This document shows positions 11,786 to 62,635 of a DNA stretch of 64,000 nucleotides, one piece after another. Made by a program: the position numbers and the translations under genes. Position 1 is the first letter of the stretch. Every line of letters starts with the position of its first letter. Origin of the DNA: Lingula anatina (lineage: Eukaryota; Animalia; Brachiopoda); assembly GCA_051362555.1 (NCBI GenBank), contig CM120642.1, positions 17,360,001-17,424,000 of the forward strand, written 5' to 3'. The notes below the pieces were generated by a model, which saw only the letters and a program-made list of their open reading frames with translations, ran no database searches and was not told where the DNA came from.

Positions 11786-13230
11786 TTCAAGAAAGGGGCA
11801 CCTTTAATTATATTCATATGAGTGTATATAAGAACATTTGCTGTGGAGGCGCTGTAAGCTGGTTTTCCATTTTAATTAACACGCTATAAGGATGTAGCCA
11901 GCAATAACGACCATCATATGCAACCGACCAAACAGAAAATGACGACATACAAAAAGTATGTCTATATGTAAGTAGCAAATTTACTTAAGGAGTTTGAAAA
12001 AGAGGAACATGTGCTTTTTCTTCGTCAAAAGAGAAATAAGTCCCCCGCAGTGGACTTTATTCCAATTTAATTTTAGTTCAGCTTTGTTCAGTGAGTCATT
12101 CAGCGTCTGCATCACATTCTAAATGTGTTCTGTCATGTAAAATGGCGTTTTGTTCGGGGCATGAAACACACGCACGCACACACGCACATACGCAAGTACG
12201 CACGCAGACACACAATTATTTTAACACGGTATTTAAAAAGAAGTCATTACAAAACAACGATAGTATTTATATGTATATAATCAATGTTCAGTCATAGAAA
12301 ACCAGGACCAGTGGGTCTTACTATACAGCTTCCATATTTGTTACTAGAAGAAAACTTTGCTTTTGATAGATGTAACCCAACGACCATCCAAACCAGTCTG
12401 TTTACCACACGTGTTTGTTATATAGTTCGTTATAGCAGCTCTCCTTGCCATTTTACCATAATAAACCGAGGAAAATACACCCTGTAACATTTAATCCGAA
12501 AAGAGGCATCTTTTCACGTGCGTTTATACCTCTCTGGCAGACCTTCGTTTTACACATGGTCTTCCGTCTGTGATTTAACCAAACCATACTGTTTCTATAC
12601 TTGTATATTCCTCCCGCCTTGGGCGTTTTGCCGTTTACATCCAAACATATTTCTTCCCCACATTCTGGGCCTAATATATTTTTATGATACATAATTTGAT
12701 GTGTTATAATCTTTGGAGATGAACAACGGGGAACGTCTGGGAATGGAAATAACAACTTCGTATACAGCTGGCAGCATGTTGCCGCGCAAAACTAGTTCAG
12801 ATTACTTAAAGAATGTTAGGGAATATTTATACATCTTTTTTTTTCTAAAATTCTCCCTTGCAATTATCTTTAATGGCAGAGGAGAGCATTTTGTTTTAAT
12901 CTCAAAAACAAGTGCAGTCTTAGGTCTTAGGTTACTCCAAAGAGGAAGGCAATTAGGCCGGGCTGGCATTAAAATTGCGTTGTAGAGGAGGGTGAATGTG
13001 GAACTTGTTTTTTGAATTACACATTTTTCCCAGCTGAGGTAATCCGAGAGGTGATATATTTGCCCGAGTGCTTGCCGATGTGGTGTTTTTACTTGTTGAA
13101 GGTTTAAACAATTTGCTTCGGCTTGGGGAGAAATGAAACATGAGCTAAGGAAAGTTTGCTTAGTGTGCTAAAATTCTGGTAACATGAGAGAGAGAGAGAG
13201 AGAGAGAGATAGAGAGAGAGAGGGAGGGTA

Positions 13231-14257
13231 CCATGGCCCATAGGAGCCTACGCGTGCGTCTTTTAGACGCCCCTTTACATGCGAAAACGACAAGGCCTAT
13301 GCCGAGTTCGTCTTTTACTACAGAGCTTTGAGAGCCGAAAATGGCATGGCTGTGTCTCTTTCGCCACTTACTGAACTCCAGAGATGCGAGATTGACACGA
13401 CCCATGTCGCGTTTGTCTCTCAAAAGACACTGTTATAAAACATGAAATAGGCATTACGTGTGATTTTCGCAGCTGAATAAGTAGACCCTTCTAAACGAAG
13501 TTGACGTGACCTTAGAGTCATGTCGCTTTCAACTTTTACAAACCTCCAACAAAATCTATCTCCACACAGACGCGCGCGACATGTAGGCCTACAATTGGAC
13601 ATGGGTCAGTTGAAAGCGACATTAACCTAAATGGCTCATGTTACTTTCAGCCAATTAATTTGAAACAGAAGGACCGTCTTAAAACCCTTTATATTTGAAT
13701 CCTTGAAAATAAAAATATGAGGCCATATAATTATTACAAGCAATTAGCCACACTGTTATCTAGATAGCACTAAATTATGATGGGATTCAAATGAAAAAAA
13801 ATGTTTTGGGACAGCACAACACTGTTTCAAATTAATTGGATTTGACATATAAGAGATGGCTGAAAGTAACATGAGCCCTTTAGATTAATAGGGTTTCAAC
13901 TGACCCATGTCCAATAGTACATGTCGCGCGCGTCTGTGTGGAGATAGATTTTGTTGGAGGTTTGTGAGAGTTGAAAGCGACATGACTCTCAAGTTACGTC
14001 AACTTCGTTTATAAGGGTCTACTTATTCAGCTGCGAAAATCACACGTTATGCCTATTTCATGTTTTATAACAGTGTCATTTGAGAGACAAACGCGACATG
14101 GGTCGTGTCAATCTCGCATCATGGCGAAAGAGACACAGCCATGTCATTTTCGGCTCTCAAAGCTCTGTAGTAAAAGACGAACTCGGCATAGGCCTTGTCG
14201 TTTTCGCATGTAAAGGGGCGTCTAAAAGACGCACGCGTAGGCTCCTATGGGCCATGG
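13231..14257. mobile_element. Non-autonomous foldback DNA transposon, ~440-bp TIRs, TA target duplication
   Basis: 13231-13668 is the reverse complement of 13822-14257 (termini CCATGGCCCATAGGAGCC...GGCTCCTATGGGCCATGG). TA at 13229-30 and 14258-59. Inserted in a GA-rich tract. Explains the mirrored ORFs 13160- and 14080+. Confidence 0.9.
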
Positions 14258-17200
14258 TAGGAGGGAGGAAGAAAGCGCGGATTACTCAGCCAGGGAACTC
14301 TGTCTGGTTGTATCCTTAGATCTCTAACTGACAAGGACACAGCCCCTCATCTTCCTCGTGCCATCAACGCATTTCAATCATTACTCAGGTCGGATCGAAT
14401 TCCCCAGTGGCATTGCTAGTGTAGGGTAAAGTAATTGTGTACAGTTAATTCGATTCGCATGCTTCTGCCTATCTCAAGCCTACTTTGAGACAAGCTCTTT
14501 CATTCTGAGATAATGTGGCAAGTGAAATGTTGACTGCATTACGTCATGCAGAGACATTAGTTTTCCTGCATGTTAATCAAATGGCACAGACTGTGATGTT
14601 CATCATTTTGTATAACCACATACTGTTTATTGTAAAAAAAATAAATAAATAAACAATTCCAATTGCAAGTGTTTTATTAGGAAAATATTTACCGACGAGT
14701 AGGAATTAAGGAATGCATATCTCTGTTACATTTTGACAAAGAATATCTCACCATTTTCTTCGTTTAATTCTTAATTCATCTTCATGTTTCTCTCTATTCT
14801 ACCGTATTTTATCTATTTATTTATTTTTTCTTTTGTGAATTGATTTCATATGAGACGGCACCTCAATTAGACTTCTGAAATCCATGTATTGCCTCCAATT
14901 TCGCGTCTGGCCCCGTGGCCCTTCATTCAGTTGGAAAAGTTAACTGGGTTGACACAGGACCAACAATGACGATTAGACGTTTTGCTGTCGGAGTCATATT
15001 TCGCTCCGCTTACTTGTTCTTTTCTAACTCCATTGTGAGCTGGGGGTCGTTTAGAATCACTCAATGGGCTCTCGAGTTTTATTTATCCGGTAAGAAGTCG
15101 AGTGTATAAAACGGCAGTTTTCATGACTTCCGAGTACAATTTGTCATATTAGACGGGTAACTTGATGCCCCCCAGACATCGCACAGCCCCTCGTGCTCCG
15201 TGTCGCCGGTCAACAATTGTCTGCGACTTTTAATGCGACAACTCCACTAAACCCGAAAGATCAATTAAACGATGACTGACTTGTGACAGTGTATAGTGTA
15301 CACGAATCTTCTGCTCCCGACCTTTTCGTGCTTCTCATACATGTAATATCATGTTTGGATCTTGTCCTTGGATCTTGTCTTGGATCATTGGATAGAATGT
15401 TGATTATTTTTAACTATGCAGGACCCCAAGTTTTTTCAAAATATATAAGAAAAATATTAACATTTTAGCATAAGGATTGACAATGAACGTGATACTTTAA
15501 GCTTTTAAATCATACATGATTTTAGGCGTGTTTCTATGTAATGTAAGTGTGGTCGACCATACTACATGTAGGTACAACAGATTTTAAACTGACATGCTGA
15601 CTGTCTTATATACGGTAGCCTTAATAAGGACACGGATCTGACAGCATGCGACTATTCTCAATGGCAACATTGGGCGGGCAACAAAATTGATTAGATTTGC
15701 ACATAATGATGAGATAATCGCAATCGGGCAGCACAGTTTTGGGTGGACTCAATTTGATAGGAAACACGACTACCTTGTGGGACTGTGATGGAGACCTCTC
15801 CCTTCCTTCTTTCCAGCTTTTTTTTTCACTCAGTGACATATTTTTCTCATCATCTAGATGTATATGGATGTATTTAGTTTCACGTTTTGCTGCACGGATT
15901 TCATAGTGACCTGAAAATTATATTCAGACTTATTTCCACGCTTTTGTGATGTAAAAAAGAAAAAGTGTAGAGCAGGCTGGGCCGTCTTTGGGGGCGGGGG
16001 GCGGGGAATTATACTGTAACAACGTTAACATTGTGAGCAAAAGGACTTTCTACGCCAGGTTCATGCTTTCCAACTAGTACTGCAAGTAGCTACATGTACG
16101 TCCTTACTACATTCCCCATCCCCTCTTTCCACGCAAAATAAAATGTAATTCCAAGTGACAAATTGTAGAGTGATCGATCACCCTTTTACGTATTCTACCA
16201 CAGTCGACCTGGAGAATTTTTTCAAGTGGATTTTAGAGTGTGTTGTTTTTCTTCAAACCAGAATTAATATGGATTAACACTTATCCCTGCAACCCGTTAC
16301 TAACCATGCATCTACACGTATAACATTTCGAGCACTACACAAAAGCTTACGAGAATTAGACATCGGACAAGTTGAGTTTTAGAACCGAGAAAGAGACTCA
16401 ACGTGCTAAATAAAATCGTTGTCACAGTTCTGTCCAGCCAGGGGGCGTTAGCTGCCTCGTCTATCATACTCATGACTCGTTACAAAAGAAAATCAGTTTT
16501 CTCTGCACCAATCAATCATCAAGTATTTAGTTTCAAATTCTCATCCAATGTAACTTAAGGCAGAAAATTACCCAGAGTTCACAGGTTTATGGGAAGCTGT
16601 CTCCATTCAGAGGTTGGTTTTTCACCCATCCCCCTTCTTGTCTTCATAGAACGGCACAACAAACTAAATCAAGAGATTTTTTATTCTATGCTCTGTAAAG
16701 TAGAATTACCCTCGTCTGTTATTTTATATTTGCCAATTAAAGCAAGGGAAAATTCCGTATCTTGTGCAAAATCCTAGATCCGCCAAGGATTTCAGCATTC
16801 TGAAACTCTAGGCGGGATTCTGAATAACGGGGTGATAACAGATGACCCGGTGTCTCGTGCATGAGGTGAATGGAAATCTAATTATTAAGGATCTAGTTAT
16901 CAAACTGACTATTTTATATCTTTGCACTTTGGCAATAAGTCAGGGATTACTTGTCACTCTTTTGGGGTTCATTTTACACCTGTTTATCTGATTCACTGTG
17001 GTAAATCACTACCATAACCCCCCCCCTTTCCCGGCAATTCCAATGTAGTAGTATAAGGTCTATAAATAATTCTTTAAAAATGCTTATTCGTACGAAATAT
17101 GTGATGCATTTACCACTGAATTCCAACCTAATTGACTTTGACAAAAACAAGCAGATCAAGTTCTGTTTCAAAACAACTTAAACTATTTTAGATTTAAATT

Positions 17201-42803: not shown

Positions 42804-43818
42804 ACAGTTATTATCGTTAAGAGTATTTGCCAGAGCTAAAATTCTGTTTTGATGTAGATCGCTCGCCTAGAGACACGATACAATTAATTTGGAACGAACC
42901 TGGTATGTGTACGACCGAAAATCAGCATTCTTCAACTTTTCATAATGAATTCATGCTGTGCATCCACAAGTATGATTGCAAAATTTTCATATCAACATTA
43001 AAGTGTGTCACCTGAAGGTATTCATCTGTCTAAATTATCGGGGGATCCAGGGTTTGGGTGGGGTTGGACGGGGGGGGGGGGGGGGGGGGGGGGGCGTAAA
43101 CAAGCTTTGTTTCTCTTTTCTTGGCAAAAATGAAACAGTATAAGAGGAGAACTTTACTAAATTAGTAAGTAGAACACATGGATTGCAGATTGCTTTTAGG
43201 AAGGGGAAGGGGGTGAAGAGTTTCCTCCGAAACTGAGAACGAAATTGAGGAAGAGCCTGGGTCCGCCATTAAAAGTAAATGGCTTTTTTTACATTGCTCA
43301 TCTGTTTTTTTCTCTTTTAATAAGCAATGCTCCTGTCCATGGAGACGACGTTCCCCTATTACAGACAATTCGAAAAGCAACCAGTGGAACAACGACCTCA
43401 CGCCGACGTGAAAGGTATTTGTGCCGATATGGAAGACAATATCAAAGCTTATATCAAATTAAAATCAAAATTTCCGGACAGAATTCAAGATCTCCGTTAC
43501 GAAGACATGGTGCAAGAACCAATGGCCAAAGCGGTAGAGGTTTACAAATTTCTTGGGCAACCGATGCCTTGGGTGGTTCAAGACTGGGTTCGGAACAGCA
43601 CCTCGTCCAATGTTGACAACGGTCCCTATGGGACATCCCGCGTGGACCCAGTTCGGACTGCTTACAAATGGATACCCTCCATCATGCCCAAGTTTGCTGA
43701 GATGATCGACGCGGAATGCAAAATGCCGATCCAACATTATGGATATGGAAATTTCTTTGAATTGAAATTGAAATACGATCTCCCTGACAGTTACAGGACT
43801 GAAAAGCTGCATTTTTGA
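41071..43818 (+). CDS. Golgi carbohydrate 6-O-sulfotransferase (CHST-like), copy ST2 (~412 aa)
   Basis: Exons 41071-41293, 41619-41799, 42190-42530, 43325-43818 (1239 nt). Signal anchor, TYGRTGST, YYFEP, LVRDPR, RYED. Confidence 0.92.
42730..42798. repeat. (TA)n microsatellite
   Basis: Perfect TA run. Confidence 0.95.
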
Positions 43819-46160: not shown

Positions 46161-46428
46161 GGGACCATTCTCAGACCCTATCGTACTAGTTTTGGATCGA
46201 TCTATCTCCTAGGGGATTCTCACTAAATTGCAATCAACTTAAGCGGCTTAGTTGTCTGTCACGCCTACTGAAGCTGATAGGGGATAATAAACTATCGTTG
46301 AACAGCTTCAGCAGGCGTGTCAGACATCTAAACCGCTTAAGCTGAAAGCAATGTAGCAAAAAACCTCTGGAGATGGACCGATCCTGTTAGATCTATCTAC
46401 AGGTATACGTAGGTATGGGAACCCAGTC
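46161..46428. mobile_element. Palindromic Harbinger-like MITE with TTA TSD, upstream of ST3
   Basis: ~95-bp imperfect arms centred near 46290; TTA at 46158-60 and 46429-31; absent from the paralogous ST2 upstream region. Confidence 0.75.
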
Positions 46429-46702: not shown

Positions 46703-49191
46703 ATGGCATGGAAATGGAAGACAGTGTTCATGGCGCTCGCATCTGTCTTCCTCTTGACTTTAATATACAGCTGCTTATTGGGGTGGAATACTATCTCGTT
46801 TCTTCCAATGAAGAGTCACAATATCAAGGTCCTGCAGCCCCCATCAAGAAATCAGACAGTCGATAGACGGAAACATGACGATCCTGACACTGGGAAATTT
46901 CCAAAGGATATCACAGGGGGTAATATATATATATGAATATATATATCCCGATGGCATAGTACTGGTACAACTACTGTGCAGAGGAAATTATTGTATTGTA
47001 TTGTATTATATTGTATTGCATTGTGGTATGTAGCAATGCTATGTGTTGCGTCGAATTGTCTTGTATTGCTTTGCATCCCATTGTTTTATCTTGCATGGTG
47101 TAGTATTGATTTGAATAGCATTTCTTATTTCAGGTTCTCAGAACATATCTGCGGACAAAGTCATCCTGATGACGTACGGAAGAACAGGATCCACGTGGTT
47201 CGGGCACCTGTTCGACTACAATCCCAACGCTTTTTATTATTTTGAGCCATTCCAATCGTTATATCGCCATTTTGAAAAGAACAAAACACTGCGCTACCCC
47301 AGTAACACGTTTAGGTAGCGCTTTTTACAAATGTCATTAAAAATATAGCGATCATATTAAGCACATGTCAAAAGTTCAAAGGTATACCCTTAAAACCTTT
47401 ATATAGCAACACAAAATGTTTTTTCATGAACATTAGAGCAACTTTCCCTATAGCACCAATTTATACCTTACTCATAAACGATAGGAAATTTCAAACTACC
47501 AATCTTTTCTTTAGTAATTAGTTTCTTATTTTAATCGTAATGATTGAAATTCACCATCCTTAATCTCCACAGCGGCATTGATTCAAAACGCATGAGGTAG
47601 TGGACGGCCATATAAGCACGTACAAGTACATCTCGTATAATTTCTAACAATTCTTGAGTGATTCTTGAATGGTCTACGTGACCTTAAATCATTTAAACAT
47701 ATCAAGTCATAATTTCTTTTCAGAAACGTATCAAACAAAGAAGACATACTGTCAATGATCACTCAGATTGCAGACAGTTTTATAAACTGCAGATTTTCTG
47801 AGGTACCATTAGAAATACTGGCCCCAGACCCCCCGAACCATATGTCTTTTGTCAATGAGGAAAGACATAAGCAGCTGACAACCTACAAAACATGCATCAC
47901 ATCTGGCAAAGATGACGCTTCTTGCGTCCCTTTATTATTATCTGCGTGTCACAACGCCAGCTTAGTCACCTTTAAAACTCTCCGCATGAAAATTGAAATG
48001 GCGGAAGAACTCCTTACAAAGAACCCGTCGTTGAAAATTTTGCATTTGGTGCGTGACCCACGAGGTGAGTCCAACAAAATAGGCGTGTATGGTCAATAAT
48101 GAAGAGAGAAACTTGCAATAATATTTTAGCGTTCAAATCTTATATACTGGGCGCCGAAAAGAGATATTTTGAATGTCAGTTGTCTGGAAACTGTAGCCAT
48201 CTGGCGTCGCCAATTAAAACGAACAAATGCCAGGGCCGAAGAGCTACATGTTCGCTCTAAACCTTTTTTTTAATGTGGGTTTAGACGTTCAATGTGAAAT
48301 GACCTGGCCCAGACACGATATATTTAATTTAGATTTAATCAGGTATAGAAGCCAGCATACAATAGATGTAGCCATGCTGTGCATCCACTACATTAATTGC
48401 AAGGTATTCCGTAAAGCATTTAAACAACGCGTTATCCACAGTGTATAATATTCTATGGAAAACATTGGCGGATCCAATTTATTAAAAAGTAGAAGAGGAT
48501 TATCTTATTACAAATTGTGGAGCACAATGATGGGAAATTGCTTGTTTCTGTCTAGTAAATGAATGTCATTATATCGTTAAAGAGGGAGGGGATCTTCCTA
48601 AATAAGGTGCATCAGCCCGTTCCCTGAACCGTTTTTGTAAGTGAATTATATTTCTGTTGCTTATTTCCTTTCTTTTTCACATTTTTCGTCGAATAAGCAA
48701 TGCTCTTGTCCATGGAGAAGACGTTCCCCTATTATAGACAGTTCGAGGACCAACCAGAAGAGCAACGATCCCACCCTGAAGTGAAAGGCATTTGTGCTAG
48801 AATGGCAGACAATATAAGAGCTTATATCAAACTTAAATCAGAATTCCCAGACAGAATTCAAGATTTTCGTTACGAAGACATGGTACAAGACCCAATGTCC
48901 AAAGCCGTAGAGGTTTACAAATTTCTTGGACAACCGATGCCTTCGGTGGTTAGAGACTGGGTTCGGAATAGCACCTCATCCAATGTTGACAACGGGCCCT
49001 ATGGAACATCCCGCGTCGATCCAGTTCGGACTGCTTACAAATGGATACCCTCTATTTTGCCAAAGTTTGCTGAGATGATCGACGTGGAATGTAAATTGCC
49101 GATTCAACATTATAGATATGGGGATTTCCGTGAGCTAAAACTGAAATATGATGTCCCACAGAGTTATAGAACTGTGAGGTTGCATCTTTGA
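46703..49191 (+). CDS. Golgi carbohydrate 6-O-sulfotransferase (CHST-like), copy ST3, tandem paralogue of ST2 (~410 aa)
   Basis: Exons 46703-46919, 47134-47314, 47724-48064, 48698-49191 (1233 nt). Exons 2-4 have the same lengths as in ST2 and the same motifs. Confidence 0.92.
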
Positions 49192-51836: not shown

Positions 51837-53541
51837 TCATTCAAGTTGAGATAAAATTTCATCATATTTACTCCTAAGTTTGTCATATGGCGTGTAGTTG
51901 AAATACTTCATTCCATGAGAGCACTCGTTCTCAACAAGCTCCACAAGTTTCAACGGGATGGTGGGAACCCACTTGTACGCTGTCTGAGCGGGATCCGTGC
52001 GTGACGTACCAAAAACACCGTTGTCCTCTTTCGCTGAGGCGCTATCCCGTACGAAATCTCTTACTTCTAAAGGCATACGATGTCCTAGAAACTGATACAC
52101 CTCTTCTGCCTTTCGCACGGGATCTTTAATGGCATCCTCGTAACGTATGACAAAAATTCTTCCAGGGAACTTAGTTTCCAGTTTTCGATACATGTTGGCG
52201 TTATCCCCTACGTTTTTGCAGTATCCCCGTATAAAATTAAACAAATTTATCCCAACGGGTGCTATTGTTTCGGTCCTCAGCTTTTCAAATGTTTTCCATG
52301 ACGAAAGCATCGTAGCTACAAAGAAAATGAAAAAGGGTCTGATGCAAGCCATTGAATTTGATATTGTAAACATTACGAGTAGGATTTGACGAATAGTTTT
52401 TTTTCATCGGAACAAAATTAATTACTTTGAACAAAATATTGATCAAAATTTAAGTTCGTGGTCTGTATATACAAAAAGTCTGATAAATAAGTAATGAAAT
52501 ATATATAACAGAACACTTGGTAAAATCAAATCACCTCTAGGATCACGTATTAAGTACAAGATTTTCAGAGCCGGGTTTCTATCCAACATGCCCGCCGTCA
52601 TCCGTAAAGTCATTCGGATAGTTTTAAATGACACGATGCTGGCGTTTTGGCACGCAGATGTTAACAGCGGTATGCATGGCCGGTCGTCGGTTTCGTATAA
52701 AATACAAGACTTAAACCTCGACATCTGGCGGTGCCGCCCTCCTATAGTAAACCAACTGTGTTTTAATCCGCCAGGAGCGAGCACGGAGAGGGGGACATTT
52801 TCAAAGTGGCAGTTCAAGAAATTTTCTGTTATCCGTATTGATACTGTCGTGTCTTTTGGACCCGGTGCTTGTCTGTAAAAATGTATATAGAATGTTTGTT
52901 TTATTTTGATATTTGTTTGTTCGAACGAACAAATAAACCGACTGATACTCAATTGAAAAGTAAGCATAGGGTTTTATAGACAAATAAAGCTCTACAGATA
53001 AATTCATTTTTTTAATTAACCATTAATCCAGATATTACGAAATAAAAAAGTGAGATAGAAAATTAAAAACATTTTTAAAATGTTACACAAGCTAACCTAT
53101 AAAGCGGCAAAAATGTATTCAAACACACACACAAAAAAAAAATAATAAACTAAACAGCAGAAATGCACATAATGACATAATGGCACAAGTACAATTTCAC
53201 TACAATGCTTTAAACCCCCTGTACACTGGACGGCGTCCCTTCTGCGTCCTTTGTGCGACCATAAAACTGGCATTGCTGTGGTCAAAAAAAGGAGGCACGA
53301 GCATCACTTTGGTTGCTAAATGAATCCTCAATGATCGGCTAGTTGTCGGCACGTGGAGTATTCTTTATTTTTACTCTCAAACGGGGCCGTTCTACGTGGA
53401 CGCAGAAAGGACGCCGTCCAGTGTAAAGGGAGCTGGTCTGTTTTAGAAAAGAGCAACGGCCATTTTTGAACACAAGACAATGACGAACCCACCCCTAACC
53501 CCATCTTAGCGACCAAGGTATTCATCATTCCTCAAAAAAAA

Positions 53542-53576
<35 letters not shown>

Positions 53577-54383
53577 ACAATAATAATAATAATAATAATA
53601 AATAAAAAATAAATAAATTAATTAATTAATTTAAAAAAAGAGAGAGAGAGAGAGACAAAGAGAAGTCATTATCCACCGACTTCTGCAGAAACACTATAGA
53701 CTTATCCAGTGAAAAAAATGAGGTCGCTATGTTTACAGCTCAAATCTGACATCAGTTCTTGGGGAAACAGGGAACTATCGATAACTGCTCACTCTGTTTT
53801 CCCTGTTGTGTATAGGAACTGTCTCCTTCTTTGGATATCTTCTTTAAGAGCGTGTAGAGGCTCAAAGTAGTATAAGGCATTAGGGTTGTAGTTCAGGAGC
53901 TCTCCCAACCATGACGAACCAGATCTGCCATGAGTTAAAAGAATCACTTGTTTGGCCGGGGTGATTTGAACATCTAGAAGAAAAAAAAAAGATCCAGCGG
54001 TCAGTGAGTGGCAACATCTGCTCACATCAGTCTGATAAACTTACGTCCAGGTTGCTCGTAAGCTAACGGTATGAAAGTTTTTTCCGCTTGTGTTTGTTAA
54101 TTATCATTTATGATCCAACTACCAAGCTAATGAACATTTTTGCTCAAGACAAAAACAGAAGTAGAGACTCGAAATTGTCAAAGCGTAAGTATTTTTATCA
54201 TTAGCTGAAAATCTACCGCACGTTTATCTTTTAACTTAAACAAGAAAAAACTGTCTAATGCATCCGTGCACTTTTTTACCGGTACTTTGTTTTCTGGGAT
54301 GACCGGATATTTATATGGATCTTATGCTACGTAATTTTATTGTAAGAAACAGCGATTTTGATATTCTCATTATTATTACCAAA

Positions 54384-54429
<46 letters not shown>

Positions 54430-54727
54430 TCAGTCCAATATGATAACGACTGAACCATTATCGAAAACCTTTTTAGCTTTTTTTTTATACATGCGCTTTC
54501 CACCTCCCAGTTTAGACATGGTGTCACTATACAAGCGTGGTTGTAAACTGTCGTTTTATTTAAAATTGCACACGTCCATGTGAGACAAATTTAGCTGAAG
54601 ATATTTGTCTTTTATGCGATACCCAAAACAGTGTGATTAAACCGAAAAGAATTATAATAAAAAGGGAAGTAATTTTAATGAAAAGGCCGTGTGTCTTCTC
54701 TGTAGAAGACTTCCATTTAATTAACAT
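51837..54727 (-). CDS. Golgi carbohydrate 6-O-sulfotransferase (CHST-like), copy ST4 (~383 aa with the proximal first exon)
   Basis: Exons 54727-54574 (anchor LFIKITSLFIIILFGLITLFWV; weak donor gtgtgc), 53973-53793, 52872-52535, 52315-51837. Motifs THGRSGSS, YYFEP, LIRDPR, RYED. Confidence 0.88.
53212..53434. mobile_element. Harbinger-like MITE in ST4 intron 2
   Basis: 33-bp TIRs ccctgtacactggacggcgtcccttctgcgtcc / ggacgcagaaaggacgccgtccagtgtaaaggg. Confidence 0.75.
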
Positions 54728-55473
54728 AGTACTAGGCACCTTTTCGGACACATATAGAACAAATTTAAGTGAAAGACATTTCAAGTCTATTAAACTTCAC
54801 ATTCCAGTGATTTTCGACGCTTCACGCATTTTAGGTAAACCATTAACTTGGCATGTAAGATAAAGATTGAGAAAGATGAGGAGCCTTAATGTTTAATTGG
54901 GACACCGTATTATTTGCCTCTCCCAGGGGTTTGCGATAGATTTTCCAGGTACACAGTGGGGAAATCAAACTAACAATCTTATTTTCTGGCACGAACTACT
55001 TGCATCAACAAACCGCTGGGGGTTACAAATAGCCAAAAACACCATCCAATCATCGATGAAGGATTTATGGGGACTGTACAGCGGGCATGATCTCCCCCTT
55101 TAGCTTCTGAGGCACACCCCGTTGTCCTCCAAACACACACGTAGTATACAACTGACCACACGACAGAAGACTGAATATACATATAGTGACACTATCCTAC
55201 TCTGCTGTTTTATATTATTCAAGTGATAGTGATAGTTTATTTCACCCTGACATTTTTGTCATTGGTACGGTAAAACAATAGTATATATACGAAATGTCAT
55301 AATAAAAATAACATTAATATAATACTATTTCAAAATAACAATGATAATGATAATAACAATATTAATGAATTTAATATGAGACTTGAGTATTTCGAACAGT
55401 GACGCGAATCATTTTGTATTCTTGTGCCCCCCCCCCCCCCCCCCCTAAAATGATCACCTACGTGGAAACTCAC

Positions 55474-55609
55474 TTGGTTCTGATGTATACGTCCATTGGA
55501 TCGTTCGAGTTGTGCACTTCAAAGTGAAGAGACCAGCACATATAAATGTAACCAGAAATACAGTGGCTCCTATCCGGGCGATAACACTCGCCTGGCTGTT
55601 CTCATTCAT
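55474..55609 (-). CDS. Alternative first coding exon B of ST4 (type II signal anchor)
   Basis: MNENSQASVIARIGATVFLVTFICAGLFTLKCTTRTIQWTYTSEP+A|gtgagt; 136 nt, phase 1, in frame with acceptor 53973. Confidence 0.65.
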
Positions 55610-56914
55610 AGCCTTAGTTTACCAACTGAACGCACGGTGGAAGCTAGATGTCTCCAAGTATGAGGGCGACTTCCGGTAATGCACCAAATTTCCCTTTAAC
55701 TTAACAGGTGACGACACTGCATGACGTTGGAGCGACGCCCTCTTGATTTTTTCTATTCTCTCTTCATACTCGCCATTTTATAACAACAACAACCAAACTG
55801 TATTTCACAGTGAGAGGCAAGTGCTAAAATTGTTGTTTTATTGAAATCAAATAAAAACATGTGTTAAGATACTTCATAGTATATTACTACTTCATAGTAT
55901 AAGCGTTACTACATGTACTTCATGATAGAAGGTGACTCTCATTGGTTAAAAAATAAGGCCCCTCAGGCGACTACGGGATATTTACCACTTCATGGGACAT
56001 TATATCCAAACATGTTTCAGTTCTGGTTGGATGTGGAAACCAGGTGTAAAGGTCGATATGATGTTTCATTCTAGACAGTGATTTCGAGAGTGACGCGTAT
56101 ATTTGCTATGGGTTGGGTGGTGGAGAAACATTACTCACTCACATGATAGTGCGTATTTTATCTCGTTGGAGTTTATTGAAGCTGTTATTTTCACATGTTC
56201 TCGCATATATCCGTGAGTTTAACTTCTATGAATAATGTACTTTATTTCAAGAGCTCCGGTCCTTTGACGGAAAGCACATAGCTAGTTCTTTGTTAAACCC
56301 ATTTAGTTTTGAGATTTTTCGGATTTCAGGACGATTAAAAACTGCTAACACTGTTGTTTTAACTTTTATTGTAAGCAAATAAAAACGTGGTATCTTATAA
56401 CACTGTGTACATGAAGTATTCCGTCAAATCTAACCACATTTGAAAAGAAAGTATTCAAAAGCATCTAAATTATAATTTATAAGGCTCATAAATCCTTTTC
56501 ATATTTTAATAATTTAATAATTTAGTAATTTTTAAATTACATTCAAAATATTTATTCACTTTATAATTACATCATGAACTGCATTTTGAGACTAAAATTT
56601 GCTCTTGATCATCAAACTGATAACATTTGCCGCAAGTAAGCCATCAACAACTGCTGTTTTATATTATTCGAGTGATAGTCATAATTAATTTCACCGTGAT
56701 ATTTTTATTATTGGTACGGTACAACAATAGTATACATACGAAATGTCAAAATAATAATAACAACATAAAATATTTAAAATAACAATGATAATGATAAAAA
56801 TAACTACAATGAATTTAAAATGAGATTTAGGTGAAACGAAGCCTCACTTATCCCCCCCCCCCCCCCCCCCCCCCCCACACACACACAGAGATGATCACCT
56901 ACGTGAAAACTCAC

Positions 56915-57050
56915 TTGCTTTTGATATATACTTCCACTGGATCGTTCGAGTTGTGGACTTCAGAGTGAAGAGACCAGCACATATAAATGCCACCAGAAAT
57001 ACGGTGGCTCCTATCCGTGCGATATCACTTGCCTGGCTGTTCTTTTTCAT
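56915..57050 (-). CDS. Alternative first coding exon C of ST4 (type II signal anchor)
   Basis: MKKNSQASDIARIGATVFLVAFICAGLFTLKSTTRTIQWKYISKA+A|gtgagt; 136 nt, phase 1. Confidence 0.65.
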
Positions 57051-57579
57051 GCTCTCCCTTTACCAACAGAACGCAAGGCAAGAGATTTCTCCGAGCAAAA
57101 AGCAAAAACCACGACGAGTTTTACCCCGTGTACATGTATATAGAGATTGAAACACTACTCGAATGAATGCAAGACAAAGAACGGAGTGGACTTATGACAT
57201 CTGCTATAACCGCGATCTTAGATAAAAAATTAATCACTTTAAGCAAAGCTTTACGCGAAATACAAACTTACATGAAGGCCCTAAGTGTGGGTTTTCAAAT
57301 TCCACCACACCACTTATTTCCGGGTTGTATGCGATTCAAAACTGTCAAGATAATTGACAGGTTGCGAAAATTTTCAGCAGGTGATAAAGTAGATAATTGG
57401 CCCTAAAATACGCCGAGCGTTTAAGATCGGGTGAATGTTAGCTTTAATAGACTTCGTCTCGCCTTTTATCTCCTCTATTAAGCGTAAGGTTATGAACCTT
57501 GTACACGTACTTACATACTGCAATTTGAACCTTGAAGATTAGCTTCAAACCACGGGACCATGCCCCCCTCCCCCTTTTT

Positions 57580-58326: not shown

Positions 58327-61119
58327 TCAGTCCTCTTCAAAGCTGAAATCAAAGTCGAAGTCCCCCACCGGAGCATCCCATTCCGGCATGTCTTCTTCGA
58401 CCTCGATGTCATCACAGGGCATGTCCATTTCCATCATGCCACCTTCCGCCATGTCGGGCATCTCCATGGCCACTATGCCGCTGTCTTCCTCCTCGTCATT
58501 GGGTATATCCCACTGAAGCAAGTCGTCTGCCACCTCGTCGTCTGGCATGCCCCAAGGCACAAGATCACAGTTGTTTTCGCCAGTGCCAGAAGTTGGGGCG
58601 AGTGCTGCCACCTGTTGTGTGGTAATGTGAGTTAGGCGCCGGTGCGCCGTATCCGGAGGACACCTTACCCTCTCCATGTCCTTCAGGAAAGATTCCTGTA
58701 TGAAAGGAAAGATGACAACTATAAGAATAAAATAAATTCTAATTTCGAAAAACATCGATTAGATGTTTCCATAAAATTTATTATTTTAAAGCAGGTCACT
58801 GCATTTAACTTTATATTTCTGTGTGTTAATTAAGTTTTAGCCTATACTACGCTGTTTAATAAAATAAAGTATATAGATTTCATGTAACAATAAAATTGCA
58901 AAAGGGTACAAGTTTCTTGCGTGATCATGAATTACGAACAGATTTAAAGCCACTGGGATGACACATATATGCACATCTGTGTAAACATATATTAATATAA
59001 TTATACCAAAAGGGAAACCATACACAAATTTTTCGTTGGTGAAATACACGGAAAATGATGAATCAGAACAAAAGCACAAGCATATAAAAGTAAAGAATTG
59101 AACAAAGACGTCAGTACCTGGACAAAAGAAAGGAGAGGGGAGGATCTGCAGTCTACGGGGAACACGTTAGTGTGATAGTCAGCAAGCCAACTGACAAAAA
59201 AAAAAAATCAAACAAAAATGTAAAAAAAAAAGATAAATAAATAAATAAGAAGAAGAAGAAAGAAAGAATGAAAGAAAAACAATGATCAAATGCAACAGAA
59301 AGTGAACAAATACTGAACAGAAAGAAACAAAAGAAAGAAAATACCTACAAATATATTCAACTAAATTTATCATACAAGATGCATGATAGCAAGATGAAAA
59401 TGGCGAGAGAACCCTTACCGAAGGTGCAATATGCCAGTCACGTCCTTCACTCTGTTGACTTTATCACTGGAGATATAGAATCAAATGGACTTTTAGTAAA
59501 ATATGTTAACAATAAATCAATTCAACAAATTGTTAACAATAATCTATTTGAAACAAACAGTATTATTTATTAAATTCTTATCTGAGTCTTCTTAATGTCA
59601 AAACCTTTCTCGCGTTAATGCAAGGTTGGCTGAAAGAATGAATACATTGACCAAAAAATAAATACAAGAATAAATCAATCAAAATTCAGATAGAAAAATT
59701 GATAGTTAAATAAATAGACAGGCAAAAAAAGCATATCCATAAATGATAAAAAAGCGACTGACCAGATCAAATTCTCAGCAAACTCCCGGAATGTCGGTTC
59801 TGCATAATCGGCATGAAGGATATATCCAGCCAGGATTTTCACTTTGATGGCCGCTCTACCGTGTGGCTCGGCGTGCCAGAGAGGGTGTCTATTGAATATA
59901 AAATCGAAATTATAAAAATGCAAGTTTTTTTTTTTCATTTTTGAACTATTATTTACTTCCAATTGAAAAAAAAAGGAGGCGAATCTCTTATTTTGATAAA
60001 AAGGAAGAAAATGCACGACTCTAGCATTAAAAACCTCATTTTTCAAATGGCCATATGTGTTAGTAATTTTAAAACTGTGATCGGATAATACATGTATATA
60101 TTCTACCTGCCAACGTACAACTCGAAGATCATCACGCCGAGAGCAAAGTAGTCCGCCTGAACGGAAGCGGAAGTGCGCATGAGAATTTCCGGGGCGAGGT
60201 TCTTGGTGATGGTGTAAGCTACCATCCTCGGTCCCCAGCTACTCTCTCCGCTCTCGTCACAGCGGTGGGCGGACCCCAAGTCACACTGTTAAAAGGAAAT
60301 TAAAGGAATAACTGAACATGGTACAATGTAGATACACATACCGGTAGGCCCTAGCCTACGTGTCGCTGTGTGGTTGCCATGTAGGCCTACAGTGTTACTG
60401 TTTATTTTCTTTTTGCAACACATTTTAACAAACTGAAATTAAATCACCAACAAACCTTTTTTTGATGACATGCTGAACATAATTTAATCAGAAACTTCAC
60501 ACTTTTATCGTAACGATCAATGTGCAAATGGGATTCTAAGCCACCTACATGTAGGCCTATGTACTGCGCATTACAGTTGTACATGTACATAACATAATAA
60601 TATTGTCTTTTCATTTTGTGAATGATATCTTTGAACATTTCACGCTTTTATTGTGCGATTGTAGCTCACCACTTTGGGGATGCCATTCCGGTTTATCAGG
60701 ATATTATTCAGCTTAATATCAAAATGTATCAGTAGTTTATTCCTCATGAACTGCAGGGCCATACAGACAGACACCGTGATAAACTTGACAGACCTTGACT
60801 CTAGTTTGCCGCTGAAAGATGGGAAAATACGTAAAGAAAATATAATGCTCATCGTATTCTTTTAAATCTTATTTATTGATTGATTTAAATTTCGCTGATT
60901 TATATAGAATCATTGCGATATCTTTAAAGTACTGTAGGAAATGTTAAAATAAGAAATGTAGGCCTAGTCTGTGAAAAAAATATGATAATGATTAAAAAAG
61001 TATGTAGACTTACATAAATTTTCTAAAAAGTTAAATATCCAAACAAAACATTTGTATTACGAAAAGATGCAAATGGGTGATTAAAAGCAAAACACAGTTT
61101 ATCATTCGATAAACCTTTT

Positions 61120-61163
<44 letters not shown>

Positions 61164-61482
61164 AAGCAAGCAAAGGGGGAAAAATAAAGCTGATTATGTA
61201 AAAGTAATGAATAAAAACGTACTGATAATCGGTCAGACGCTGCAAGTCAAGTGGGCAAAGTTCTGTCAAGACAACAGGTAAGCCAGGCTTTACTTCAAAT
61301 GAATGGTGCAAACTAAAAATATCGATGGAAAATAACGTAATCAGAACTTAAATAATCTCAGTAAATGAAAATAAATATATAAAAGATAAAAAAAAAAAAA
61401 TTAAAATTAAATAAAGATAAACAATCAAAGATGAAATAAATCTTCCTCCATACCATGATATAACACCTTCAGGAAAAACTAT

Positions 61483-61514
<32 letters not shown>

Positions 61515-62635
61515 GGAAGAATAAGTAAAAAAATAGCATAAGGTGGGACTTGTCAATTGAGCGCGATTAGAATATTTACTTACAGAAAATGTAAAAATAA
61601 ATACAGGTACATGTAGTTACCTCAAAATGAAATCGCTTTTGAGCTCTTTAAGAAGAACGATCTCCTTTTCAAATGCTTGAGCCCTTTCGATGTCCACCGG
61701 CACTTTTAATGCCAGGTTGTTTGAAAACTAAAATAAGAACATGATTGTTATAGCCCACGCTATCAGACATGTTCCAATCGTCTGATAAAATAATATTGAG
61801 TTTAGGATTTGTAAAGGTTTACTGAGGAGGAGACAGTAGAGGAATGTCACCGTCAGTTCCCAGGGAGACTCCATCCAGTAATCCACACACACAAACACAC
61901 ACACAGCAAAGGATTGCAAAGGACAGCAAAGGATATAACATAAAGAAAGAATGATCATTTCTCTAAAAAAATAAACAGTTTTAACGCAAAGTAAATGGTA
62001 TAGAGTCTTATCATGACAAAGGCCTATCTAACTTAAATAAGATTCGTTCTAAATCAGGGCTTGACACTAACTTTTTTCGATACTGGCCCGAAATATCGGT
62101 AAATATTGCAAGGATGATTTGACACATGATATTTTAGTTGCTCTTTGGGCCAGTGACCCAAGCGATTCAATGGCCCCAGGTTGGTTTTCAGTGGCCCAGG
62201 GCCAGTGGGCCACCCTTAATGTCAAGCCCTGTTCTAAATAGATACATACAATGTGATCCAATGAAGTACATGTAATTTGAACTTTATTTGAAAAGGCTTA
62301 GGCCTACCTTGTACACGTGGCCGTAACTGCCGACCCCCAACACTTTGTTGTCAGGAAATCCATTCATGTAAAGCTTTCTAATCTGTAAATTAGACAAAGT
62401 TATTTGCATCAAGCACCGGTAAATAAAACCATTAAATATTTTCACAGAATGTAAAAAAAGAATGTTGAATTCTCTTCTCGAAATGTTAGTAAGCCTATTA
62501 ATGTTTTGGAGGATCATTTTGCCAAATGTATTTTGCATCCAGTTGATAATTTACCTTATTCTCCAGAGCTCTCCTTTTGATGTACTTATAGGTATGTTGA
62601 GCACCCAAAAACGCTAGATGCGAAATGATTATCAT
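58327..62635 (-). CDS. Divergent Ser/Thr protein kinase (non-RD) with acidic C-terminal tail (~429 aa, 10 exons)
   Basis: Exons 62635-62555, 62382-62308, 61727-61621, 61312-61223, 60811-60670, 60285-60107, 59888-59763, 59466-59419, 59190-59118, 58695-58327; 1290 nt, phases consistent. Motifs GVGSYG, ALK, helix-C E, HFDIKLNN, DLG, APE, DYFALG. Confidence 0.88.
62055..62231. mobile_element. hAT-family MITE with perfect 8-bp TSD, in a kinase intron
   Basis: TIR cagggcttgaca/tgtcaagccctg; ttctaaat at 62047-54 and 62232-39. Confidence 0.9.

What the first reader, a model, noticed from the sequence alone, without database searches (positions are those of the whole stretch)
53793..57075. Sulfotransferase ST4 appears to have an array of three alternative signal-anchor first exons
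Seen: upstream of the shared catalytic exons lie three ATG-initiated minus-strand exons (54727-54574, 55609-55474, 57050-56915). Each encodes a short cytoplasmic tail, one TM helix and a stem, and each ends in a phase-1 GT donor in frame with acceptor 53973. B and C are too short for the ORF track. They are duplicates with 15 substitutions (6 synonymous, 9 non-synonymous, only one of the latter in the TM core), no indels and intact gtgagt donors, but unrelated sequence beyond ~25 bp upstream of the ATG. A is a different anchor. Established: cytoplasmic-TM-stem regions set the sub-Golgi location and partners of glycan-modifying enzymes, and variable-first-exon arrays exist in UGT1A and protocadherins. 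Inference: promoter choice swaps the targeting module on one catalytic domain.
Basis: partly seen in the sequence, partly recalled or inferred. Interest (0 to 1): 0.85.

Follow-up and report, generated by a model that had tools for sequence, protein, structure and literature searches.

The report
Sulfotransferase with three membrane-anchor exons
A brachiopod sugar-sulfating enzyme gene carries three intact exons that each encode a predicted membrane anchor in frame with one shared catalytic part; one is the annotated start, the other two are likely but unproven alternative starts, and two sister genes are already annotated with swapped anchors.

Summary
Three ATG-initiated, phase-1 exons (C 57050-56915, B 55609-55474, A 54727-54574), each with a predicted transmembrane helix, lie upstream of one acceptor (53973) and give open 377-383 aa frames. 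The gene matches Lingula anatina carbohydrate sulfotransferase XP_013421979 (370 of 377 residues), whose single database model uses B. C is a local duplicate of B (about 460 bp block) with only weak signs of selection (dN/dS 0.45, not significant). A is unlikely to be chance (0.7-3% per 1.5 kb) and resembles the first exon of neighbouring paralogs, but its donor is weak. Eight RNA runs were too shallow: no splice joint for any first exon. New support comes from the family: 2 of 13 Lingula paralog clusters looked up have RefSeq isoforms with different transmembrane anchors on an identical catalytic domain. Best reading: anchor-exon duplication gives this expanded family alternative promoters and anchors; about 55% that A or C is really used here, about 25% that all three are. 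A change of Golgi position is untested. It works like GCNT2/UGT1 variable first exons, except that the variable exon holds no catalytic residues. New variant of a known kind; moderate interest.

The parts
56915..57050 (-). Candidate first coding exon C (45 codons + 1 nt): tail, predicted TM helix, stem; duplicate of B; donor CAA|GTGAGT; use unproven
   Evidence: no protein; zero depth in 8 of 8 runs
56651..57095 (-). C copy of the duplicated block (about 45 bp upstream + exon + about 265 bp intron)
55669..55782 (-). Promoter-like motifs upstream of B (TATA-like overlapping YY1-like at -173/-170, two CRE half-sites, ETS-like at -67), lying outside the duplicated block; motifs recalled, function untested
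55474..55609 (-). First coding exon B (45 codons + 1 nt); identical in protein to residues 1-45 of XP_013421979; donor CAA|GTGAGT
   Evidence: about 100 bases of sense-strand depth in its bin in run X1
55202..55658 (-). B copy of the duplicated block
54574..54727 (-). Candidate first coding exon A (51 codons + 1 nt): basic tail, predicted TM helix, stem; resembles the ST2/ST3 first exon; weak donor GAC|GTGTGC; use unproven
   Evidence: no protein; zero depth in 8 of 8 runs
53793..53973 (-). Constant exon 2: strong acceptor, end of stem and 5'-phosphosulfate-binding motif (RSGSS)
52535..52872 (-). Constant exon 3: catalytic domain, ends in the RDPR motif
51837..52315 (-). Constant exon 4: rest of the catalytic domain and stop codon
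   Evidence: sense-strand RNA depth about 1-2 in X1 and X2

Best explanation
This is one carbohydrate-sulfotransferase gene whose predicted membrane anchor is encoded by a single small phase-1 exon, and the locus holds three intact such exons, of which B is the annotated start and at least one of A and C is likely a second, lower-level start. Shown: three open, in-frame anchor exons; B in the database protein; C arose with B by a local duplication of about 460 bp that left B's promoter-like motifs behind. Inferred: A is the older anchor exon, related to that of paralogs ST2/ST3; each exon would be transcribed from its own upstream promoter and spliced straight to 53973, skipping the downstream anchor exons because they lack strong acceptors; the catalytic domain would be identical in all forms. 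The likely gain is a different time or tissue of expression (B vs C) and, for A vs B, a different tail/helix/stem that could shift Golgi position or acceptor access (untested). Because the whole anchor sits in one exon ending in phase 1, any copy or newly arisen exon of that phase can be plugged in, which would explain why the same swap recurs in paralogs.
For: Frames and phases. B = N-terminus of XP_013421979. Anchor-exon scan: 6 of 13 hits in 128 kb are sulfotransferase first exons; chance of an A-like exon 0.7-3.1% per 1.5 kb. A vs ST2 first exon: Smith-Waterman 42, shuffle p 0.0018 (one of 15 pairs; about 0.03 after correction), vs ST3 38, p 0.005; 42 exceeds all 66 anchors of homologs, of which the best two are the ST2 ortholog itself (41) and an unrelated protein (40). 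B vs C: 0 gaps in 136 exon bases vs 6 in 253 aligned flanking bases (Fisher p 0.074); TM codons 1 non-synonymous vs 3 synonymous (dN/dS 0.11, p 0.07). Family precedent: 2 of 13 named Lingula clusters looked up (21 clusters) have isoforms with different N-terminal hydrophobic anchors on an identical catalytic domain: XP_023932891/2 and XP_013385859/60/61; hydropathy 1.6-2.8. No acceptor-like site in the 200 bp before A; only weak ones before B and C.
Against: Only one protein, with B, is on record for this gene, and its name has no isoform label; C and A peptides found no protein of their own (weak tests by the tool's own note). A and C bins have zero depth in 8 of 8 runs and no splice joint was listed, but B was also zero in 7 of 8 or nearly so and exon 2 reached depth 2-3 at best, so the test has little power. 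Overall dN/dS of B vs C is 0.45 (p 0.135 against neutrality) and fits 'B constrained, C neutral' (P 0.16-0.88 over the settings tried); exon divergence (11%) is close to intron divergence (13%). A neutral copy would keep its frame fairly often (no stop and ATG kept 0.61; no frameshift about 0.3). A's donor is weak and its likeness to ST2/ST3 beats the best unrelated anchor by only 2 points. The genomic layout behind the paralog isoforms was not seen; they are models, not experiments.
Confidence: 0.55

Rival explanations
1. Only B is used. C is a dead-on-arrival partial duplicate that did not take B's promoter along, and A is the abandoned ancestral anchor exon whose donor is decaying; the array is a record of anchor replacement, not a switch.
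For: Single B-only model; promoter-like motifs lie just outside the duplicated block; dN/dS and exon-vs-intron divergence fit one neutral copy; weak A donor; the only first-exon bin with sense-strand depth is B's.
Against: Both extra exons are intact at once: a rough neutral survival of about 0.15-0.2 each over the time since the duplication (0.61 x about 0.3), less for A if it was abandoned earlier; TM core of C is conserved; paralogs show annotated anchor swaps.
Confidence: 0.36
2. A, B and C are mutually exclusive internal exons fed from one shared upstream non-coding exon, so splicing rather than promoter choice picks the anchor.
For: Weak acceptor-like AG sites exist 16 nt before B's ATG and 104 nt before C's.
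Against: No such site before A; the sites are much weaker than the exon-2 acceptor (0.56-0.65 vs 0.96); promoter-like motifs directly upstream of B; no joint or loose end at these places in 8 runs (low depth).
Confidence: 0.05
3. C is an assembly artefact (a collapsed haplotype placed in tandem) or B/C belong to a dispersed repeat family.
Against: B/C divergence 11-13% is far above the 1.6% heterozygosity reported for the species (PMC4595640); the window has no N; the B/C block drew no pile-up of diverged RNA reads, unlike true repeats at 53216-53430 and 54109-54146 (hundreds of reads); the C peptide finds only XP_013421979; no third copy in the window.
Confidence: 0.04

Closest known systems
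Vertebrate GCNT2 (IGnT) variable-first-exon cluster
   Same: A Golgi glycan-modifying type II enzyme with tandem variable first exons, each holding the N-terminal TM segment, each with its own promoter and spliced to constant exons; arisen by tandem duplication and birth-and-death (PMC1885805, passages seen).
   Different: GCNT2 variable exons are highly similar to each other and long, with six conserved cysteines of the luminal part (that they carry much of the catalytic domain is recalled). Here the variable exon is 45-51 codons, ends before the first catalytic motif, and A is unrelated to B/C (p 0.28-0.38). Use of more than one exon is unproven here.
UGT1A / protocadherin variable-first-exon arrays
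   Same: Variable exons upstream of shared constant exons, with pseudo-exons and relics common in the array (PMC1885805, passages).
   Different: There the variable exon carries the substrate-recognition or ectodomain and the TM lies in the constant part (UGT1); here the logic is reversed: constant catalysis, variable anchor. Three exons, not ten or more.
Human B4GALNT2 exons 1S / 1L
   Same: Alternative first exons change the N-terminus and subcellular place of one Golgi catalytic domain (PMC9959560, passages).
   Different: Only the cytoplasmic tail changes; TM and luminal domains are shared. Here tail, TM and most of the stem would all be swapped.
Lingula anatina CHST paralogs XP_023932891/2 and XP_013385859/60/61
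   Same: Same family and species; RefSeq isoforms with different hydrophobic N-termini on an identical catalytic domain, the switch point lying shortly before the first catalytic motif.
   Different: Two anchors each rather than three; already in the annotation, whereas A and C are not; their exon layout was not seen here.
Vertebrate Gal/GalNAc/GlcNAc-6-O-sulfotransferases (CHST1-7)
   Same: Pfam Sulfotransfer_1, database name 'carbohydrate sulfotransferase 3', type II layout, RSGSS and RDPR motifs. The title of de Graffenried and Bertozzi 2004 (PMID 15220337; title only, seen in a reference list) states that the stem of GlcNAc6ST-1 determines substrate specificity.
   Different: The gene falls in a well-supported clade (0.997) whose named members are all Lingula proteins; orthology to one vertebrate CHST and the acceptor sugar were not tested.

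Membership tests
Golgi carbohydrate sulfotransferase (CHST/GlcNAc6ST-like) | PAPS-dependent sulfotransferase domain with 5'-PSB and 3'-PB motifs | tested here: met
   PF00685 E 1.7e-16, above cut-off, for P0001; RSGSS in exon 2 and RDPR at the exon 3/4 border (motif names recalled)
Golgi carbohydrate sulfotransferase (CHST/GlcNAc6ST-like) | N-terminal type II signal anchor (short tail, one TM, stem) | tested here: met
   Hydropathy peak 2.1-2.5 starting at residue 9-15 in A, B, C; hydropathy only, no topology predictor
Golgi carbohydrate sulfotransferase (CHST/GlcNAc6ST-like) | 6-O-sulfation of a sugar acceptor in the Golgi | not testable with these tools
   needs assay and localisation
Variable-first-exon cluster (GCNT2/UGT1/PCDH kind) | Tandem coding exons in the same phase upstream of shared constant exons | tested here: met
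Variable-first-exon cluster (GCNT2/UGT1/PCDH kind) | Variable exons are paralogous duplicates | tested here: inconclusive
   met for B/C (89% nt identity), not met for A vs B/C (p 0.28-0.38)
Variable-first-exon cluster (GCNT2/UGT1/PCDH kind) | Each variable exon is spliced separately to the first constant exon | tested here: inconclusive
   B in the RefSeq model; no joint for any first exon in 8 shallow runs
Variable-first-exon cluster (GCNT2/UGT1/PCDH kind) | Each variable exon has its own promoter | tested here: inconclusive
   motif cluster before B, one ETS-like site 273 bp before C, a CCAAT before A; no start-site data
Variable-first-exon cluster (GCNT2/UGT1/PCDH kind) | Array conserved across related species | not testable with these tools
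   no own genome held; the genome searches cover prokaryotes only

The most novel reading that the evidence does not exclude
The expanded carbohydrate-sulfotransferase family of Lingula diversifies by plugging interchangeable anchor exons onto fixed catalytic domains: at this locus all three anchors are used, at least two more genes do the same, and promoter choice sets where in the Golgi, and so on which glycans, one enzyme acts in tissues such as the shell-forming mantle.
Probability: 0.15. Interest if true: 0.72.

Novelty: new variant of a known kind. Interest (0 to 1): 0.45.

Why it matters
If A or C is used, the locus is a natural version of the anchor-swap experiment: same catalytic domain, different tail/helix/stem. 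[quoted passage not shown] If only B is used, the locus is still a snapshot of how one signal anchor is replaced by an unrelated one, which would help explain why anchors of close paralogs are so unlike each other.

Tried and rejected
Own genome: none held, so copy number of B/C and the assembly junctions were not tested. Run search: no RNA holder listed; nine raw-read runs were offered by species label. Eight of the nine were laid, 6-26% of each read: exon 3/4 depth about 0.5-2 in X1 and X2, exon 2 depth 2-3 in X3, almost nothing in X4-X8; no splice joint passed the 3-read threshold, not even between constant exons, so the lay cannot decide. The one listed joint near B (55446-57563) links two poly-G runs and was set aside as an artefact. 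Protein searches with the C and A peptides against longer proteins gave only XP_013421979 (1 of 10 candidates) and nothing (0 of 17). Likeness of B/C to the ST1 first exon was considered and dropped (p 0.04-0.09 in shuffles; 6-11 of 66 unrelated anchors score as high). No relic A-, B- or ST1-type exon near ST1-ST3. A Patella isoform pair differs only by an N-terminal extension, not an anchor swap. PDB gave only distant cytosolic sulfotransferases. Literature: nothing on alternative anchor exons in sulfotransferases or in Lingula in the listings (listings and abstract starts only; the library lacks most subscription papers; PMID 15220337 not held). Earlier scan notes: none.

Full report
Setting. 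The window holds four related sulfotransferase genes with the same four-exon plan: ST1 (minus, 35058-32626 region), ST2 (plus, from 41071), ST3 (plus, from 46703) and ST4 (minus, ending at 51837). A search with ST4 exon 4 found one protein, Lingula anatina 'carbohydrate sulfotransferase 3', XP_013421979. The B form read from the window matches it at 370 of 377 residues, all seven differences in exons 3 and 4, so the window is probably another allele or assembly of this species or a very close one. Proteins matching ST1 and ST2 lie on a scaffold of the same recorded length. The genome paper reports 30 copies of this family and 1.6% heterozygosity (PMC4595640, passages) and high expression in larvae and mantle (supplement passage). 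All four genes encode the whole tail-helix-stem in one first coding exon that ends in phase 1.

Observation. Confirmed as written for coordinates, phase, frame and substitution counts. The introns from A, B and C to the acceptor would be 600, 1500 and 2941 nt. Two details need correcting. The duplicated block is about 460 bp: it begins 45-49 bp upstream of the ATG and runs about 270 bp into the intron. And A's donor, GAC|GTGTGC, is weak: -0.15 on a recalled weight table, against 4.9 for B and C, 5.35 for ST1, 2.98 for ST2 and 0.38 for ST3; 11% of all GT sites in the window score as high.

Is A real? AT-rich DNA readily gives hydrophobic peptides, so I tested this. A fixed scan (ATG, 35-80 open codons, hydropathy at least 1.9 starting at residue 5-26, stem, phase-1 GT) over both strands gave 13 hits; 6 are the first exons of ST1, ST2, ST3 and A, B, C; the 7 others are scattered, several in simple repeats, and only one has a donor better than A's. 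The thresholds were set with these exons in view, which favours them. In 1500 simulated 1.5-kb stretches, 3.1% held any candidate and 0.7% one with a donor as good as A's. A also aligns from its first residue with the ST2/ST3 first exon (score 42, shuffle p 0.0018; 38, p 0.005; 15 pairs tested). Against 66 anchors of homologs (those of 149 hits that start with Met and have an N-terminal hydrophobic segment) none reached 42; the ST2 ortholog scored 41 and the best unrelated one 40. So A is most likely a genuine, old anchor exon, though the homology is marginal. Whether it is still used is a separate matter.

Is C alive? B vs C: pN 0.09, pS 0.19, dN/dS 0.45 (p 0.135); TM codons 1 vs 3 (0.11, p 0.07); stem 0.79; intron divergence 13% vs exon 11%. 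No gap in 136 exon bases vs 6 in 253 flanking bases (p 0.074; the flanks include simple repeats that raise the gap rate). A model with B constrained and C neutral predicts 6.5-13 non-synonymous changes (9 seen) and 2.7-5.4 in the TM (1 seen; P 0.03-0.26). The hints point to constraint on C but do not prove it. A cluster of promoter-like motifs lies 67-173 bp before B, just outside the duplicated block; C has one ETS-like site at -273 and A a CCAAT at -173 (motifs recalled).

RNA. Eight of nine offered runs were laid. ST4 is transcribed on the expected strand at very low level (exon 3/4 depth about 0.5-2 in X1, X2; exon 2 depth 2-3 in X3). The B bin had depth 0.44 in X1 (about 100 bases, roughly one read, which may be unspliced) and 0.06 beside the poly-G run in X8; the A and C bins were zero in 8 of 8. 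No splice joint was listed, not even between constant exons. This neither supports nor refutes A or C. It does show that B/C is not a common transcribed repeat: real repeats in the same stretch drew hundreds of diverged reads, the B/C block none.

Databases. One protein, with B, no isoform label; nothing with A or C. This is the main evidence against the three-way reading, tempered by low expression.

Family precedent. A search of 50%-identity representatives and a tree of 48 of the top 70 hits (those of 270 aa or more with the first motif) gave a clade with support 0.997 whose named members are all Lingula proteins. Of 21 clusters looked up, 13 are named Lingula; not all members were read in four of them. 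Two of the 13 hold RefSeq isoforms with different hydrophobic N-termini on an identical catalytic domain: XP_023932891 vs XP_023932892 (unique parts 53 and 43 aa, weakly related, p 0.03) and XP_013385859 vs XP_013385860/61 (42 and 33 aa, unrelated, p 0.77). Pairs split across 90% clusters would be missed, so 2 of 13 may be low. These are gene models whose exon layout I could not see, but they show both kinds of swap proposed for ST4, a related pair and an unrelated pair, in the same family and species.

Mechanism. Shown: three open anchor exons in frame with one acceptor; B annotated; B/C from a local duplication. Inferred: each exon would start from its own promoter and splice directly to 53973, the downstream anchor exons being skipped for want of strong acceptors; catalysis is the same in all forms. 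For B vs C (36 of 45 residues identical; C's tail is more basic) the likely gain is regulatory. For A vs B the tail, helix and stem all differ and could change Golgi position or acceptor access; the support for that is precedent only (B4GALNT2 passages; title of PMID 15220337; further knowledge recalled). My odds: A or C used 0.55; all three 0.25; B only 0.36; shared upstream exon 0.05; artefact or repeat 0.04.

Comparison. It works like the GCNT2 and UGT1 variable-first-exon clusters (PMC1885805, passages), which also carry relics. It differs in that the variable exon is the anchor alone and one exon is unrelated to the others. Membership cannot be granted until separate splicing and promoters are shown. 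No report of this arrangement in sulfotransferases or Lingula appeared in the listings; the library lacks most subscription papers.

Verdict. Real feature, plausible and partly supported interpretation, decisive RNA test still open. New variant of a known kind; interest 0.45.

Noticed in passing
proteins P0008/P0155 (XP_023932891/2) and P0157/P0009/P0158 (XP_013385859/60/61): Two other Lingula carbohydrate sulfotransferase genes have annotated isoforms with different TM anchors on an identical catalytic domain.
   Followed up: partly
window 35058-34908 and 34082-33905 (minus): ST1 has an intact anchor exon and exon 2 in the window, whereas its database protein XP_013379310 starts only around exon 3: the model is probably 5'-truncated.
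   Followed up: partly
window 43324-43815 and 48697-49188 vs protein P0151 (XP_013420569): In exon 4, P0151 carries ST3-type residues at 5 of 26 diagnostic sites and ST2-type at 18 (3 neither), while P0002 is ST2-type at 26 of 26: possible gene conversion or a further paralog.
   Followed up: partly
window 54783-54835 and 57402-57454: A 53-bp element, 74% alike and inverted, lies 56-108 bp upstream of A and about 350-400 bp upstream of C; repeat remnant or shared regulatory piece, unexplained.
   Followed up: no
window 53217-53430, 54011-54146, 55860-56335: Small dispersed repeats that draw many diverged RNA reads; 53217-53430 has 33-bp inverted ends (94%), like a miniature inverted-repeat element.
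   Followed up: no
window 13229-14259 and 46194-46384: Long imperfect palindromes (82% over about 1 kb; 76% over 190 bp) in the self-comparison.
   Followed up: no
window 58327-62550 (minus): Upstream neighbour with protein-kinase fragments (Pfam Pkinase E 3e-7 at 60643-60861, below the curated cut-off) and an acidic C-terminal frame ending at 58327; leaves about 1.2 kb for any promoter of C.
   Followed up: no
window 46703-46919: ST3's first-exon donor is also weak (0.38) and seems shifted by three bases relative to ST2's, so weak donors occur at first exons in this cluster.
   Followed up: no
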